Assembly: GCA_963526325.1 (NCBI GenBank)
Contig: CAURNC010000002.1
Location: 67,149 to 131,148 of the forward strand
DNA length: 64,000 nucleotides
Direction of reading: 5' to 3'
From: an uncultured Candidatus Saccharibacteria bacterium
GTDB taxonomy: Bacteria; Patescibacteriota; Saccharimonadia; Saccharimonadales; Saccharimonadaceae
Both the position numbers and the translations under genes were made by a program. The notes beneath the pieces were generated by a model. It was not told the origin of the DNA. It worked only from the letters and a program-made list of their open reading frames with translations, and did not search any database. The stretch's first letter is position 1. Each line of letters starts with the position of its first letter. Of the stretch, positions 15,929 through 30,322 are shown one piece after another.

Positions 15929-16016
15929 GGACATATAGCTCTAATCGGCAGAGCGCCCGCGTCGACAACGGTGTCGACGCAATGGGAGGCTGCGGGTTCG
16001 AGTCCCGCTGTGTCCG
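15929..16016 (+). other. tRNA-like domain 1 (extended anticodon arm, no anticodon loop)
   Basis: Acceptor GGACATA/TGTGTCC; D arm GCTC/GAGC; T arm GCGGG-TTCGAGT-CCCGC; anticodon replaced by GCGTCGACA/TGTCGACGC hairpin. Confidence 0.75.
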
Positions 16017-16218
16017 CTTCGCGGTTGCATGCGCAATCACACGACCTCATCACCCGTGTGAAGCCGTATGTAAGCGAAAAAACTTGGGTGTTTCCACCAC
16101 TCCGCCCGAGTTTCATTGACTTCTCAGCTTTGTTTTGTGGTCCAATGGCGTACGACAAACCAAAGCGGGTGTATACCGCTACATCGAGAAGACCAATGTT
16201 TTCAACACAGAATGGTCA

Positions 16219-16288
16219 GGGTGTGCCAGGTAGGGAGACAGGACATTCGAAGTCCACCGTCTCGCGGGTTCGACTCCCGTCACATCCA
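16219..16288 (+). other. tRNA-like domain 2 (no D stem, G3:U70, discriminator A)
   Basis: Acceptor GGGTGTG/CACATCC; T arm GCGGG-TTCGACT-CCCGT; GAGAC..GTCTC and GGAC-ATTCGAA-GTCC arm. Confidence 0.7.
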
Positions 16289-16402
16289 CTGAGATGGCAC
16301 AATGGCGTGTCATCTCTCCCCCCGGGTTCGCGAGATTCACTCGTGGCAGTTTTTCTCACCGTCGAGATCAACTCCGAGCAGAACCGCTTGAGCCCACCAA
16401 CG

Positions 16403-16438
16403 CCCCTCATTCTCAAAGGCGAGAGTGAGGGGTTTTCT
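16403..16438 (+). terminator. Rho-independent terminator
   Basis: CCCCTCATTCTC / GAGAGTGAGGGG then TTTTCT. Confidence 0.8.
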
Positions 16439-16462
16439 CCTTTGTATGGTAAAATAACAGAG

Positions 16463-17539
16463 ATGACATCATTTTGGGACAATCTACCGCAGCCATTTTT
16501 CATCTTGGCACCCATGGAAGCCGTCACTGACGTGGTATTTCGCCATGTCGTGAAAAGGGCGGGCGCGCCCGACGTGTTTTTCACCGAATTTGCCAATGCG
16601 ACCGGCTGGGTACATGCTGGTGACAAAGCCATCGCTGGGCGACTCGTCAAAACCGACGATGAACATCCACTAGTCGCCCAAATCTGGGGCGGTGAGCCAG
16701 GCGACATGGAGCAATTTGCCGCTCACTGCATAAAGCTCGGCTTTGACGGCATTGATATCAACATGGGCTGTCCCGCCAAATCCGCCATCAAAAGCGGGGG
16801 AGCAGCGCTGATTCGCCGACCCGACGTAGCGGTTGCTGCCATCGCCGCTGCTAAAACTGCTGGGCTGCCAGTTAGTGTGAAGACTCGGCTGGGCTATTCA
16901 CGCGTTGACGAGTGGAAAGAATGGCTGAGCACGCTACTGGCGCAGGACCTCACCAACCTGACCATCCACCTCCGCACCAAAAAGGAGATGAGCAAAGTTC
17001 CAGCGCACTACGAGCTTATCGACGACATCGTCAAACTACGCGATGAAATCGCTCCGCAAACTCTCTTGACTATCAACGGCGATATCCGCGACCGCGCCCA
17101 TGGTGAAGAATTAGCTAGAGCTCACCCAGGCCTCAACGGCATCATGATCGGGCGGGGCATTTTCAGCGATCCGTTTTGCTTTAGGAGGGCAGTTAAACTA
17201 TCCTCAGTCGAGGAAGCTGTGACGGGCGCGTCAAGCCCCGTCAGCCGAACGCCACGGGCTGGCGAAGCCACCCGTAAAGAGTCCTCCGAGACAGAGGACA
17301 GTTCAACTATTCATCACAAGTCTGAACTAATTGCCTTACTATACTACCACCTTGACCTCTTTGACCACTACCAATCAACCCTCGGCCGCCCCTACGAAAC
17401 CCTCAAACGCTTCTTCAAAATCTACATCCGCGACTTCGACGGCGCCAAGGAACTGCGCGACCAGCTGATGCACACTAAGACGACCGACGAGGTGCGATCA
17501 ATACTTGCACACAACGATCGTCCACATTATACTTATTGA
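16463..17539 (+). CDS. dus: tRNA-dihydrouridine synthase (Dus)
   Basis: LAPMEAVTD, DINMGCP, SVKTRLG, NGDI, GIMIGRG; true start 16463; carries a ~40 aa insertion. Confidence 0.95.
   Translation: MTSFWDNLPQPFFILAPMEAVTDVVFRHVVKRAGAPDVFFTEFANATGWVHAGDKAIAGRLVKTDDEHPLVAQIWGGEPGDMEQFAAHCIKLGFDGIDINMGCPAKSAIKSGGAALIRRPDVAVAAIAAAKTAGLPVSVKTRLGYSRVDEWKEWLSTLLAQDLTNLTIHLRTKKEMSKVPAHYELIDDIVKLRDEIAPQTLLTINGDIRDRAHGEELARAHPGLNGIMIGRGIFSDPFCFRRAVKLSSVEEAVTGASSPVSRTPRAGEATRKESSETEDSSTIHHKSELIALLYYHLDLFDHYQSTLGRPYETLKRFFKIYIRDFDGAKELRDQLMHTKTTDEVRSILAHNDRPHYTY
17191..17308. repeat. Palindromic in-frame insertion element, copy 1
   Basis: Terminal IR AGTTAAACTATCCTCAGTC / GACAGAGGACAGTTCAACT; two inner hairpins; core TCAGCCGAACGC shared with 28966-28977. 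Confidence 0.75.
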
Positions 17540-28439: not shown

Positions 28440-28468
28440 TGTCCCGCCTAAGCAGTGGCGGGATTTTT
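28440..28468. terminator. Terminator between convergent genes
   Basis: TCCCGCC / GGCGGGA stem followed by TTTT. Confidence 0.6.
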
Positions 28469-30251
28469 ATGCTGCGCCGATTTGTACCACTTCGCCGCCG
28501 ATTTCTTGGCGGAAATAATTGTCGTGGCTAACGTACAGGATGGCGCCAGAATATTTCGCCAGCGCCGTCTCCAGCTCCTCGATGCTTGGCAGATCAAGGT
28601 GGTTGGTCGGCTCGTCTAAAATCAGCAGCTGCGGGTCATTCGCCAGCATGGCAATGATCTGAAAGCGAGCTTTTTGTCCGCCCGACAAGCGCGCCAGTGG
28701 CGTCATCCGGTCGGCTTCGGTGAACAGATAATCGGCTAGCAATTGGCGAATCTTTGTCTCGGAAATCGGCAGGTCGCGACTGAGGTATAATTTCTCAATC
28801 GCCGCCTCCAACGGATCCGCCAAATACCGCTCATCGATCTCTTGCTCATACACACCCACCCGTACCTGCGGGTCGAGGAAGAGATTACCGGAGTAGAGGA
28901 TAGGAGCGGCAGGTGCGACACCTTCTACGCCAGAGACTGTGGAACGTTCGCGAGTAGCGGACGTTTCAGCCGAACGCTTGCGAAAAATCTCCGGTGGAGA
29001 TTTGAGCGAAGAGTGTGCTCTGGCGGAGGACGGTGGAGTGACTGCCGCCCTACTGTTTAACAACATCCGAATCAACGTCGTCTTACCAGCGCCATTGCGC
29101 CCGCGCAGCTCCACCGCTTCACCCTCACGCAAATCAATATTCACCCCCTCAAATAATATCCTTTCACCAACGCCAACTGCCGCATCCTCAACCCGCACCA
29201 GCACGTGCTGACTACGACTAGCCGCGTCCTTCATCGACAGCCGAATATTGCGCGCCTTGAACTTGCCGTAGCGCTCAGCCGATTTATAATCAAGCTGCCC
29301 AGCCGACTCCTTATCAATCCAAAAGGTCGGCTTGTCCATCTCTGACAATTCCGCCAGCTCGGCCCGCGCCTCATTTTCCAGCCGCTTGAACTTTTGGATA
29401 GTGCCAGGGTTTCGCGACTTTTCCTTCAGCCGCTGATAATCCAGCGCCTTTTGTTTGAGGTTAGTCATCCGCTTCTCGACCTGCTCAAAATTATTCATGC
29501 CCGCCGCCGTCGCCTGAGCATTTTGCTTGAGGTAAGCATCATAATTACCGCGGTAGCTGACCGCTCGGCCGTCTTTAAGTTCAACGATTCGATCCACCCG
29601 ACCCAGCACATCGCGGTCGTGGGTGATGATCAGCATGGCCTGGCGCGGCTGCGAACTCATCCAGTCGATGAATTGCTGCTTGGCCACATAATCCATGTGG
29701 TTGGTCGGCTCGTCAATCAGCGCCAAATGCGCCCCCGAGTGCATAATCTTCACAATCTCTACCAGCCGTTTCTGACCACCCGACAGGGAACCAAGTGGAC
29801 GGCCGCCGCACCCGCTCAGCTGAAAATTATCGAGCTCCCGCCCAATCTTCTCCTCAATCTGATAAAAGCCTTTTTGGTCAAATCGCTCCAGCGCCTGGGT
29901 GTATTCCTCAATCTTACGCATGTTATCACCCATGGTTTCAGGATATTCATCGATAATTTTCTTCAAGCTCGCATATTCCGGCAGCCCCGACAAAATGTAG
30001 CTCAGCACCGTCTGATTGCCCAAACCATGATGCTCCTGCGCCGTACTAGCCACCGTGATGCCGCGGCGAAAAATCACCTCGCCGATATAATCGGTGTCCG
30101 TGCCCGCCAGAACCCCAAACAGTGTCGATTTGCCGACGCCATTGCGGCCGACCACGCCGACCTTTTCGCCATCATCCACGCTAAACTTGACGTCACGCAT
30201 CAACGTCTTGTCGCCAAAACTCTTCTCGGTGATGTGAATGTCGGCTATCAT
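28467..30251 (-). CDS. ABC-F family ATPase
   Basis: Two NBDs (GRNGVGKS / GRNGAGKT, LSGGQ, DEPTNH), no TM; carries a ~50 aa insertion in NBD2. Confidence 0.95.
   Translation of the reverse strand: MIADIHITEKSFGDKTLMRDVKFSVDDGEKVGVVGRNGVGKSTLFGVLAGTDTDYIGEVIFRRGITVASTAQEHHGLGNQTVLSYILSGLPEYASLKKIIDEYPETMGDNMRKIEEYTQALERFDQKGFYQIEEKIGRELDNFQLSGCGGRPLGSLSGGQKRLVEIVKIMHSGAHLALIDEPTNHMDYVAKQQFIDWMSSQPRQAMLIITHDRDVLGRVDRIVELKDGRAVSYRGNYDAYLKQNAQATAAGMNNFEQVEKRMTNLKQKALDYQRLKEKSRNPGTIQKFKRLENEARAELAELSEMDKPTFWIDKESAGQLDYKSAERYGKFKARNIRLSMKDAASRSQHVLVRVEDAAVGVGERILFEGVNIDLREGEAVELRGRNGAGKTTLIRMLLNSRAAVTPPSSARAHSSLKSPPEIFRKRSAETSATRERSTVSGVEGVAPAAPILYSGNLFLDPQVRVGVYEQEIDERYLADPLEAAIEKLYLSRDLPISETKIRQLLADYLFTEADRMTPLARLSGGQKARFQIIAMLANDPQLLILDEPTNHLDLPSIEELETALAKYSGAILYVSHDNYFRQEIGGEVVQIGAA
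28901..29052. repeat. Palindromic in-frame insertion element, copy 2
   Basis: Terminal IR TAGGAGCGGCAG / CTGCCGCCCTA and CGCCAGAG / CTCTGGCG; two inner hairpins; core TCAGCCGAACGC. Confidence 0.75.
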
Positions 30252-30322
30252 TGGGCTATTATACCACACGCCATACCGTAAGGGTATTGAAATATATGAT
30301 TTTTTGTGGTATAATACAAGTT

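What the first reader, a model, noticed from the sequence alone, without database searches (positions are those of the whole stretch)
28901..29052. Second member of the same palindromic family inside the ABC-F gene, with conserved junctions and fully diverged stems
Seen: the same architecture as the dus insert (outer stem, CTGTG, hairpin, TCAGCCGAACGC at 28966-28977, hairpin, AAGAGT at 29009, outer stem), but all stems differ in sequence. It is in the opposite orientation relative to its host gene and is read in a different frame, after Walker A of NBD2. Inference: conserved single-stranded junctions with freely varying stems are the signature of a functional structured RNA/ssDNA motif, such as a recognition site for an HUH transposase or a ribozyme-like fold. 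It does not match the hammerhead core. Possibly an undescribed intragenic mobile element.
Basis: partly seen in the sequence, partly recalled or inferred. Interest (0 to 1): 0.78.

Follow-up and report, generated by a model that had tools for sequence, protein, structure and literature searches.

The report
In-frame palindromic repeat family of Saccharibacteria
A 152-base self-pairing DNA repeat sitting in frame inside an ABC-F ATPase gene belongs to an apparently undescribed family of small mobile palindromic elements of Saccharibacteria, which resemble the palindromic elements of Rickettsia but have a conserved three-way-junction core.

Summary
Window 28901-29052 folds into a three-way junction (z = -6.8). 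It shares exact junction motifs (CTGTG, CAGCCGAACGC, AAGAGT) with the dus insert at 17191-17308, while all three stems differ.

It is one of 4 copies in this 717-kb genome. The family occurs in 18 of 201 genomes of the same taxonomic family and in three further families of the order. Among public records it was confirmed only in those labelled Saccharibacteria or uncultured bacterium.

- **Structure:** covariation is overwhelming (94% of cells paired against 73% shuffled; 29 of 35 pairs with double changes).
- **Mobility:** congeners have empty sites. One clean pair shows a 129-nt insertion carrying both outer arms.
- **Translation:** genic copies stay open in the host frame in either orientation. 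In ABC-F the insert is a disordered 49-residue loop after Walker A of NBD2.
- **Strand:** one strand folds better in 42 of 47 copies whatever the host gene's direction. That strand lies on the C-rich strand in 24 of 29 copies.
- **Mobilising enzyme:** no HUH, TnpB or reverse-transcriptase gene was found.
- **RNA family:** there is no Rfam match.

Best reading: a non-autonomous, MITE-like mobile element comparable to Rickettsia palindromic elements (RPEs), whose core is recognised as a folded single strand, probably DNA. The ribozyme and HUH readings are not supported. The mobilising enzyme is unknown.

The parts
28901..28935 (+). P1 5' arm, the outer stem (35 nt). It ends in the family-wide GAG that closes the junction.
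   Evidence: Arm alignment, fold, inverted repeats I2 and I5.
28936..28941 (+). Junction J1/2, ACTGTG. CTGTG is conserved in at least 95% of 83 distinct family rows.
28942..28966 (+). P2 hairpin (25 nt, long-type subfamily).
   Evidence: Five of its 7 modelled pairs show changes on both sides.
28967..28977 (+). Junction J2/3, CAGCCGAACGC, the most conserved part of the family.
   Evidence: Variants CAGCCCAACGC and CAGCCGAACAC occur in other genera.
28978..29008 (+). P3 hairpin (31 nt). The tip TCC-GGT-GGA is conserved in the long type; the lower stem varies freely but stays paired.
   Evidence: Helices 4 and 5 have 12 of 12 pairs with changes on both sides.
29009..29017 (+). Junction J3/1, AAGAGT plus GTG. 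The GT pairs with the RC just before CTGTG in the consensus fold.
29018..29052 (+). P1 3' arm (35 nt), beginning with CTC.
28467..30269 (-). Host gene: an ABC-F-type ATPase with two ABC_tran domains and no membrane domain. The element encodes residues about 408-456, a loop between the Walker A helix and the next strand of NBD2.
   Evidence: The AlphaFold2 model has pLDDT below 50 for residues 408-456 only, apart from 1-4 and 338-342. Congeners lack these 49 residues.
17191..17308 (+). Sister copy of the short-type subfamily, in frame and sense in the dihydrouridine synthase gene.
   Evidence: Covariance-model hit at E = 1.3e-8. Congeners with an empty site are 35 residues shorter.

Best explanation
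The stretch is one copy of a Saccharibacteria-specific family of small (about 117-157 nt) non-autonomous mobile palindromic elements. Each copy has a long outer stem (P1) and two hairpins (P2, P3), joined by three conserved junction strands: CUGUG, CAGCCGAACGC and AAGAGU.

Shown:
- The whole unit, outer arms included, is gained and lost at specific sites within one genus.
- Copies lie between genes or, in this genus, inside genes. Genic copies survive only where they add a multiple of three bases without stops to a tolerant loop or linker. They are therefore carried as a disordered peptide insert, as with Rickettsia palindromic elements.
- The stems are kept paired while their sequence turns over.
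- The constraint acts on one strand only, the strand carrying CAGCCGAACGC, whatever the direction of the host gene.

Inferred:
- The conserved junction is the recognition site of whatever machinery moves or processes the element. It is read on a folded single strand, more likely DNA than RNA.
- Stems stay perfect partly through template-switch ('quasipalindrome') correction during replication.
- The surviving copies mostly carry the foldable strand on the leading-strand template, where it is rarely single-stranded and so is stable. Chromosomal integron attC sites behave in this way.
- The mobilising enzyme is not one of the known small-element transposases and remains unknown.
For: Family and structure:
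- There are 4 copies in the genome by motif and by covariance model.
- There are 47 motif matches in 18 of 201 genomes of the taxonomic family, against 1 match for the reversed control pattern.
- The model hits 5 of 151 genomes sampled across the order, in 4 families, and 26 of 41 genomes of the genus, with 0-6 copies each.
- On 83 distinct rows, 94.2% of cells are paired against 73.4% shuffled and about 40% slid. 29 of 35 pairs change on both sides, and 0 of 500 shuffles reach any measure.

Mobility:
- ABC-F orthologues at 88% identity lack the insert.
- The dus site is empty in 10 of 30 loci read.
- The rnhB-yraN linker is empty in many loci.
- In topA, G215 differs from G243 and G217 by exactly 129 nt that carry both arms, with GCG at both junctions.
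- Three different genes of one genome share the same outer stem.
- A relative's contig holds a second copy identical over 125 nt, 23 kb away.

Translation:
- 22 of 47 copies (one borderline) are open in a long host frame: 11 sense and 11 antisense.
- Net insert sizes are 147, 105, 90 and 129 nt.
- The insert is a loop with pLDDT below 50.

Strand:
- The + strand folds better in 42 of 47 copies with RNA parameters: 10 of 11 sense, 11 of 11 antisense, 21 of 25 intergenic. With DNA parameters it is 44 of 47.
- G.U cells number 141 against 51 A.C cells.
- The + strand lies on the C-rich strand in 4 of 4 copies and 20 of 25 copies. Long ORFs lie mainly on the G-rich strand.

Concerted arm changes and hairpin deletions are seen among orthologous dus copies.

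Precedents read:
- RPE in-frame insertions (PMC10969869, passages).
- Template switching that creates and maintains hairpins (PMC8794818, listing and abstract only).
Against: - No mobilising gene was identified: Y1_Tnp, TnpB and RVT_1 in 0 of 5 genomes, IS110 in 1 of 5, rve in 1 of 5. Complete element-bearing genomes G241 and G250 have a single tyrosine recombinase, which the element-free G203 also has. G241 has no serine recombinase. Active transposition is therefore inferred, not shown.
- Presence or absence at a shared site could also spread by homologous allele exchange between species.
- The same four sites carry 3-5 different inserts, which simple random insertion does not explain.
- No target-site duplication was established. 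The only hint is one GCG repeat.
- The foldable strand lies on the leading-strand template. This is the reverse of what I recall for IS200/IS605 elements, so the single-stranded-DNA reading needs the 'survivorship' argument.
- Copies are not independent, because orthologues were counted separately in the 42/47 and 24/29 figures.
- The alignment used for covariation was fitted to the model's structure.
- Translation of the insert is inferred from the open frames. No peptide evidence was available.
Confidence: 0.65

Rival explanations
1. It is a functional structured RNA: a self-cleaving ribozyme, a small self-excising intron-like element, or a cis-regulatory or processing signal. The three-way junction would be the active core, acting in the transcript.
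For: - Conserved junction nucleotides with freely covarying stems are the classic pattern of ribozymes and riboswitches.
- There is a G.U excess on one strand.
- The 25-37 bp outer stem would bring the two edges of the insert together.
Against: - None of 4227 Rfam families matches at E <= 10.
- The better-folding strand is antisense to the host gene in 11 of 22 genic copies. It has no consistent direction relative to the flanking ORFs of intergenic copies, and no conserved flank could serve as a promoter.
- Sense copies in ABC-F, dus and topA-type genes are as frequent as antisense ones, which an efficient self-cleaver would not allow.
- All genic copies keep the host frame open with lengths that are multiples of three. 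An excised RNA would not need this.
- Contigs from two RNA-seq-labelled libraries run through the element. This is weak evidence, because DNA carry-over is possible.
Confidence: 0.1
2. It is a recombination site read as folded single-stranded DNA by a host tyrosine recombinase (Xer-like), in the manner of integron attC sites. It would not be a transposon in the usual sense.
For: - Structure rather than stem sequence is conserved, and one strand matters.
- The orientation bias places that strand on the leading-strand template, as reported for attC bottom strands in sedentary integrons (PMC5371416, passages read).
- The only recombinase found in some element-bearing genomes is one tyrosine recombinase.
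Against: - The conserved part is the central junction. attC conserves the boxes at the base of the stem (recalled, not tested).
- There are no cassettes or arrays. Copies are single and scattered, many inside genes.
- The same recombinase is present in the element-free genome G203.
- The integron integrase itself was not searched for.
Confidence: 0.1
3. It is a passive palindromic remnant with no sequence-specific machinery. An old insertion family would be kept palindromic only by template-switch correction, with junction identity reflecting shared ancestry, and spread between species by homologous exchange of whole alleles.
For: - Concerted multi-base changes of both arms and hairpin-sized deletions occur among orthologous dus copies.
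- No transposase was found.
- Many copies are orthologous across species.
Against: - The 11-nt junction is at least 95% conserved over 83 distinct rows from several taxonomic families, while P1 and the lower P3 are completely turned over.
- Strand-specific G.U tolerance runs against the local compositional skew.
- New sites do arise. There are four or more host genes, intergenic sites in other genera, and near-identical cores (94-98%) at unrelated loci.
Confidence: 0.1
4. The insert is kept because the encoded peptide is useful, as a selected flexible linker or loop module in the host proteins.
For: Inserts sit in loops and linkers and stay open.
Against: - The same DNA is read in different frames and in both orientations, which gives unrelated peptides.
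- Many congeners do without it.
- 25 of 47 copies are not in an open frame.
- The conserved features are base pairs, not codons.
Confidence: 0.03

Closest known systems
Rickettsia palindromic elements (RPEs)
   Same: Both are roughly 100-150 bp palindromic repeats of a reduced-genome, host-dependent lineage. Both occur between genes and, unusually often, in frame inside unrelated housekeeping genes as translated inserts, with no transposase of their own (PMC10969869, passages read).
   Different: - RPE families are described there by sequence and by a conserved peptide. Here only about 25 junction bases are conserved and the stems covary.
- The same element is read in several frames and in both orientations.
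- This family has a three-way junction, a strand-specific folding constraint and a replication-related orientation bias. I did not see these reported for RPEs in the passages read.
- The phylum is different, and no sequence similarity was tested.
REP/REPIN elements with RAYT, and IS200/IS605-derived palindromic MITEs
   Same: Both are short palindromes thought to act as folded single-stranded DNA, with orientation tied to replication, and are multi-copy and non-autonomous (family properties recalled).
   Different: - The defining Y1/HUH transposase is missing in 5 of 5 genomes, and TnpB likewise.
- REPs are extragenic and conserved in sequence within a genome.
- Here the conserved part is a central junction, not a hairpin foot or a GTAG-type motif.
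- The foldable strand lies on the leading-strand template rather than the lagging-strand template (IS608 behaviour recalled).
Integron attC sites
   Same: Both are imperfect palindromes of similar size in which structure is conserved rather than stem sequence. One strand is the active one, and chromosomal copies are oriented with that strand on the leading-strand template (PMC5371416, passages).
   Different: There is no integron, no cassette ORFs and no arrays. The conserved bases are at the centre, not at the base of the stem. Copies lie inside genes.
ERIC, Correia, BOX and similar bacterial MITEs
   Same: Both are 100-150 bp imperfect palindromes. They are sometimes intragenic or co-transcribed, and are scattered and lineage-specific (PMC10969869, passages; otherwise recalled).
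   Different: Classical MITEs keep terminal inverted repeats and target-site duplications that match a parent IS. Here the termini are the variable part. No parent IS was found, and no clear duplication either (one GCG repeat).
Hammerhead and other three-way-junction self-cleaving ribozymes
   Same: Three helices meet at a junction whose strands are conserved while the helices covary.
   Different: The junction sequences do not match. No Rfam ribozyme family hits at E <= 10. The orientation and open-frame data argue against RNA catalysis.

Membership tests
Rickettsia palindromic element-like in-frame MITE (as a kind, not as a homologue) | Short palindromic repeat present in several copies per genome | tested here: met
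   4 copies in G000. 0-8 copies per genome in relatives.
Rickettsia palindromic element-like in-frame MITE (as a kind, not as a homologue) | Insertion inside unrelated protein genes that preserves the reading frame | tested here: met
   Hosts are ABC-F, Dus, RNase HII-UPF0102 and, in relatives, topoisomerase I. 22 of 47 copies are open in the host frame.
Rickettsia palindromic element-like in-frame MITE (as a kind, not as a homologue) | Presence/absence polymorphism at orthologous sites | tested here: met
   Empty sites in congeners at all four loci examined.
Rickettsia palindromic element-like in-frame MITE (as a kind, not as a homologue) | Sequence homology to a described RPE family | not tested
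   No RPE sequence was available from a tool. Homology is not claimed.
Classical MITE | Conserved terminal inverted repeats matching a parent IS, plus a target-site duplication | tested here: not met
   The outer arms differ completely between subfamilies. The only hint of a duplication is one GCG repeat at a single clean junction. No parent IS was seen.
REP/REPIN-RAYT or IS200/IS605-derived element | A Y1 (HUH) transposase gene in the genome | tested here: not met
   PF01797 in 0 of 5 element-bearing genomes, while the control rings in 6 of 14 reference genomes. PF07282 (TnpB) in 0 of 5.
Integron attC site | Association with gene cassettes or arrays and an integron integrase | tested here: inconclusive
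   Copies are single, genic or between ordinary genes. Tyrosine recombinase counts do not track the element. The IntI-specific model was not searched.
Known self-cleaving ribozymes and any other Rfam family | Match to the family covariance model | tested here: not met
   0 matches at E <= 10 over 28800-29150 on both strands. Only 3 tRNAs reach gathering score in the whole window.
Known self-cleaving ribozymes and any other Rfam family | Self-cleavage activity | not testable with these tools
   Needs in vitro transcription of both strands.
Structured single-stranded nucleic-acid motif (generic) | Compensatory base-pair changes beyond controls | tested here: met
   covariation score 0.56 against 0.18 shuffled and about 0.1 slid, with 554 cells changed on both sides against 138. 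Caveats: the alignment was fitted to the model, and the rows are related.

The most novel reading that the evidence does not exclude
This is a new class of structure-specific mobile DNA. Its cis-acting signal would be a three-way junction formed by one folded DNA strand, not terminal repeats. It would be moved by an enzyme that is none of the known small-element transposases (HUH/Y1, TnpB-associated, IS110, DDE, reverse transcriptase), or by the replication and repair machinery of these minimal cells. It would repeatedly remodel essential proteins (ABC-F, Dus, RNase HII-YraN, topoisomerase I) of Saccharibacteria by in-frame insertion at a few hot spots.
Probability: 0.3. Interest if true: 0.75.

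Novelty: new variant of a known kind. Interest (0 to 1): 0.62.

Why it matters
Saccharibacteria have very small genomes (about 0.6-1.3 Mb among those searched here). From recall, they are regarded as poor in mobile DNA. This family shows that a small selfish element has nevertheless colonised them, and in one genus it sits inside housekeeping-type genes as translated loops.

- **A second natural case.** It gives an independent example of the 'Rickettsia palindromic element' phenomenon in an unrelated reduced-genome lineage. The idea that such elements are a route to new protein loops can now be tested by comparison.
- **Annotation.** Inserts of 30-100 residues in ABC-F, Dus, TopA and RNase HII-YraN alignments of Saccharibacteria are element-derived, not domain innovations.
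- **Strain typing.** Presence or absence at the hot spots is a ready strain marker for oral and environmental Saccharibacteria.
- **Mechanism.** The conserved junction, the strand-specific constraint and the absence of any known transposase point to a recognition mechanism that is not yet described. A pull-down with the folded strand could find it.

Tried and rejected
- **Outer stem copied from the target.** I considered that P1 might be built at each insertion as an inverted copy of target DNA, or that the core inserts into pre-existing hairpins. Rejected:
  - The clean topA pair shows both arms arriving together.
  - Three genes in one genome share an outer stem.
  - The same element with its arm-specific mismatches occurs in both orientations in the rnhB-yraN linker.
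  - The 'arms without core' alleles of G246 and G251 are best read as a hairpin-mediated deletion between short repeats.
- **AAGAGT as a target motif.** It occurs in the empty ABC-F site but not in the empty dus or topA sites. Dropped.
- **G.U excess as a by-product.** It is not explained by replication skew, because the element's strand lies on the C-rich side. It is not explained by selection for weaker mRNA structure, because sense copies show the same bias.
- **Viral carriage.** One exact-pattern hit in viral contigs fails the covariance model.
- **Hits outside Saccharibacteria.** 11 of 80 loci from the species-genome scan have other labels, and all 11 fail the model.
- **Public sequencing runs.** No run holds more than 0.24 of the sampled words. 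The laid runs are contigs of relatives and give no ends, strand or expression level. No spliced form was seen, and lack of cover in X1 over the element means nothing.
- **Literature.** I found nothing on such elements:
  - 'Saccharibacteria' + 'palindromic' + 'in-frame': 0 papers.
  - 'Saccharibacteria' + 'miniature inverted-repeat': 0 papers.
  - 'Saccharibacteria' + 'palindromic': 32 papers, and none of the 15 listed is about such repeats judging by title and abstract.
  - 'Candidate Phyla Radiation' + 'MITEs': 4 unrelated papers.
  - Subscription journals are not covered.
- **Module X.** The second palindromic module was not found in G000 by a 12-mer search.
Full report
**1. The observation**

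CTGTG lies at 28937-28941, TCAGCCGAACGC at 28966-28977 and AAGAGT at 29009-29014. These are flanked by 35-nt arms at 28901-28935 and 29018-29052 that pair with each other.

As a single strand, the + strand folds into an outer stem enclosing two hairpins at -84.5 kcal/mol. Shuffles average -54.4, z = -6.77, and 0 of 200 fold as well. The - strand gives -64.4 kcal/mol.

The exact 12-mer occurs twice in the window, at 17241 and 28966. The copy at 17191-17308 has the same order of parts with different stems.

The host ORF 28467-30269 (- strand) has two ABC_tran domains and no membrane domain. The element is antisense to it, in frame, and directly follows the second Walker A motif. The other copy is sense and in frame in a Dus-family gene.

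**2. It is a family**

The window's genome is 717 kb in 6 contigs. The motif pair occurs four times:
- in dus;
- in ABC-F;
- in a fused RNase HII-UPF0102 (YraN) ORF;
- at one site with no open frame.

A covariance model built from 30 relatives finds exactly these four at E <= 1. The four form two subfamilies. Dus and C6 share short P2 and P3 hairpins. ABC-F and C3 share long ones.

The pattern CAGCCGAACGC-N15-45-AAGAGT gives 47 matches in 18 of 201 genomes of the same taxonomic family (12 of 95 genera). The reversed control pattern gives 1 match.

The model also finds the element in these samples:
- 5 of 151 genomes sampled over the order, in four families, with junction variants CAGCCCAACGC and CAGCCGAACAC;
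- 26 of 41 genomes of the genus, with 0-6 copies each.

Of the 80 loci returned, 69 pass the model. All 69 are labelled Saccharibacteria, Saccharimonadales, Nanosynbacter, Minimicrobia, Nanosyncoccaceae, Saccharimonas or 'uncultured bacterium'. The 11 with other labels all fail and are chance matches. One viral-contig match also fails.

**3. Anatomy and covariation**

The consensus layout, written 5' to 3', is:

P1 ... GAG-R-C / UG / P2 / (CA)GCCGAACGC / P3 / A-R-A-G-W / GU-(R)-CUC ... P1'

P1 is 25-37 bp and the whole element is 117-157 nt.

On 83 distinct rows aligned to the model:

| Measure | Observed | Shuffled | Slid |
|---|---|---|---|
| Cells paired | 94.2% | 73.4% | about 40% |
| Covariation score | 0.56 | 0.18 | about 0.1 |

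- 29 of 35 pairs show changes on both sides.
- No shuffle of 500 reaches any measure.

Two caveats apply. The alignment was fitted to the model, and the rows are related.

Bases conserved at 95% or more are essentially the three junction strands and the closing GAG/CUC. P1 and the lower part of P3 are constrained in pairing only. P2 and the tip of P3 are conserved within subfamilies. No Rfam family matches.

**4. It comes and goes**

All four host sites examined are polymorphic within the genus.

| Host site | Empty state | Filled state |
|---|---|---|
| ABC-F | 568-residue frames at 88% identity read TLIRMILASGKSFDGGPVLYSG | G000 has 49 more residues |
| Dus | 10 of 30 loci are empty | G000-type copies add 35 residues |
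| RNase HII-YraN linker | 171 nt | 261 nt in G000 |
| Topoisomerase I (empty in G000) | G243 and G217 | G215 has exactly 129 nt more, with both arms |

- At the dus site, two loci (G246, G251) keep the arms but have lost the core, and one has lost just the P3 hairpin.
- In the topA pair, GCG stands at both junctions. This could be a 3-bp duplication or microhomology.

The outer stem therefore travels with the core. Further evidence:
- Three different genes of G165 share one outer stem.
- A contig of a relative holds a second copy identical over 125 nt, 23 kb from its ABC-F copy.
- The dus-type core recurs at 94-98% identity at unrelated loci of other species.

Each of the four sites carries several different inserts in different species: other subfamilies, either orientation, and a second palindromic module. 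These sites are hot spots.

**5. Fate in genes**

Of the 47 copies, 22 (one borderline) lie in a long host frame that stays open through them: 11 sense and 11 antisense rows. The other 25 lie between ORFs, and 9 of those are closed in all six frames.

Net insert sizes are multiples of three: 147, 105, 90 and 129 nt.

An AlphaFold2 model of the ABC-F protein was built from 15 orthologues (mean pLDDT 73.6). Residues 408-456 form an unstructured loop with pLDDT below 50, between the Walker A helix (396-405) and the next strand (458-465) of NBD2.

This is the behaviour described for Rickettsia palindromic elements (PMC10969869, passages read). Translation itself is inferred, not shown.

**6. One strand matters**

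The strand carrying CAGCCGAACGC folds better than its complement in 42 of 47 copies with RNA parameters and in 44 of 47 with DNA parameters. This holds for sense copies (10 of 11), antisense copies (11 of 11) and intergenic copies (21 of 25).

Paired cells hold 141 G.U against 51 A.C.

That strand lies on the locally C-rich strand in 4 of 4 copies of this genome and in 20 of 25 copies in five relatives. Long ORFs lie mainly on the G-rich strand, as expected for the leading strand. The G.U excess therefore runs against the compositional skew and is not a mutational by-product.

Orthologous copies were counted separately, so these figures overstate independence.

**7. How it most likely works**

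- **RNA or DNA.** The favoured strand has no fixed relation to transcription, and no flank is conserved that could carry a promoter. Genic copies also stay translatable. I therefore read the junction as a signal on folded single-stranded DNA rather than RNA (inference).
- **Orientation.** The bias puts the foldable strand on the leading-strand template. The closest precedent is the attC bottom strand of sedentary integrons, where that orientation limits folding and excision (25 of 30 arrays, PMC5371416, passages read). Copies in the other orientation would be lost faster. The hairpin-sized deletions show that such loss happens.
- **Perfect stems.** Perfect but fast-changing stems fit template-switch correction of quasipalindromes (PMC8794818 and PMC7202029, listing and abstracts only). 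The concerted arm changes between the dus copies of G249 and G000 are an example.
- **What moves the element is unknown.**
  - PF01797, PF07282 and PF00078 are absent from 5 of 5 element-bearing genomes.
  - PF01548 and PF00665 occur in 1 of 5 each.
  - Recombinase counts do not track the element.

**8. RNA rivals**

A ribozyme or intron-like role is not excluded, but it has no positive support. In two RNA-seq-labelled libraries of a relative, assembled contigs run through the element with no skipped form. These are contigs and DNA carry-over is possible, so the evidence is weak.

**9. Novelty**

Four searches of the held library found nothing on such repeats in Saccharibacteria or the Candidate Phyla Radiation. 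Subscription journals are not covered.

The kind is known: a palindromic, non-autonomous element inserted in frame. The architecture appears new: a conserved central three-way junction, variable termini, strand-specific constraint and no known transposase. The lineage also appears new.

Noticed in passing
L272-L275, L277-L280 (topA); L062-L065 (ABC-F); L104, L107 (dus); L313, L314, L316, L318, L320, L321 (rnhB-yraN linker): A second, different palindromic module lies beside the three-way-junction element, or alone, at the same hot spots in other species of the genus. It has a stem GGCRTCTCA/TGAGAYGCC around an inner hairpin and is translated as ..SHKIIRDP..QIFSE.PLAPD... It occurs in both orientations. 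It was not found in G000 with a 12-mer at up to 2 mismatches.
   Followed up: partly
L100, L101, L105, L106, L108, L109 (dus site); L287 (topA site): Further in-frame inserts of other, unidentified kinds occupy the same sites: about 144 nt at the dus site (translated ..SSEIEDKRVIVGGAAP..) and 174 nt in topA of G206.
   Followed up: no
G000 C3:19253-20350 (L003:827-1924) and 29 genus loci: RNase HII and UPF0102 (YraN) form one fused ORF throughout the genus. The inter-domain linker is the insertion hot spot.
   Followed up: partly
window 15929-16016 and 15971-17539: The mechanical 'dus' ORF starts inside a tRNA gene. The Dus domain begins near 16500, so the real start codon lies well downstream of 15971.
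   Followed up: no
G000 contig C1, near 250 kb: GC skew flips sign from about -0.1 to +0.15, which marks a replication origin or terminus. All contigs show strong skew, which allowed element orientation to be tested.
   Followed up: partly
L129:1409-1607 (G009): A weak second model hit (E = 1e-4) on the opposite strand abuts a strong hit. This may be two elements tail to tail.
   Followed up: no
window 28906-29030 against run X14: A 35-kb contig from an RNA-seq-labelled library of a relative holds the ABC-F region with an extra 106 letters at 29048/29059. It also holds a second copy of the element, identical over 125 nt, 23 kb away.
   Followed up: partly
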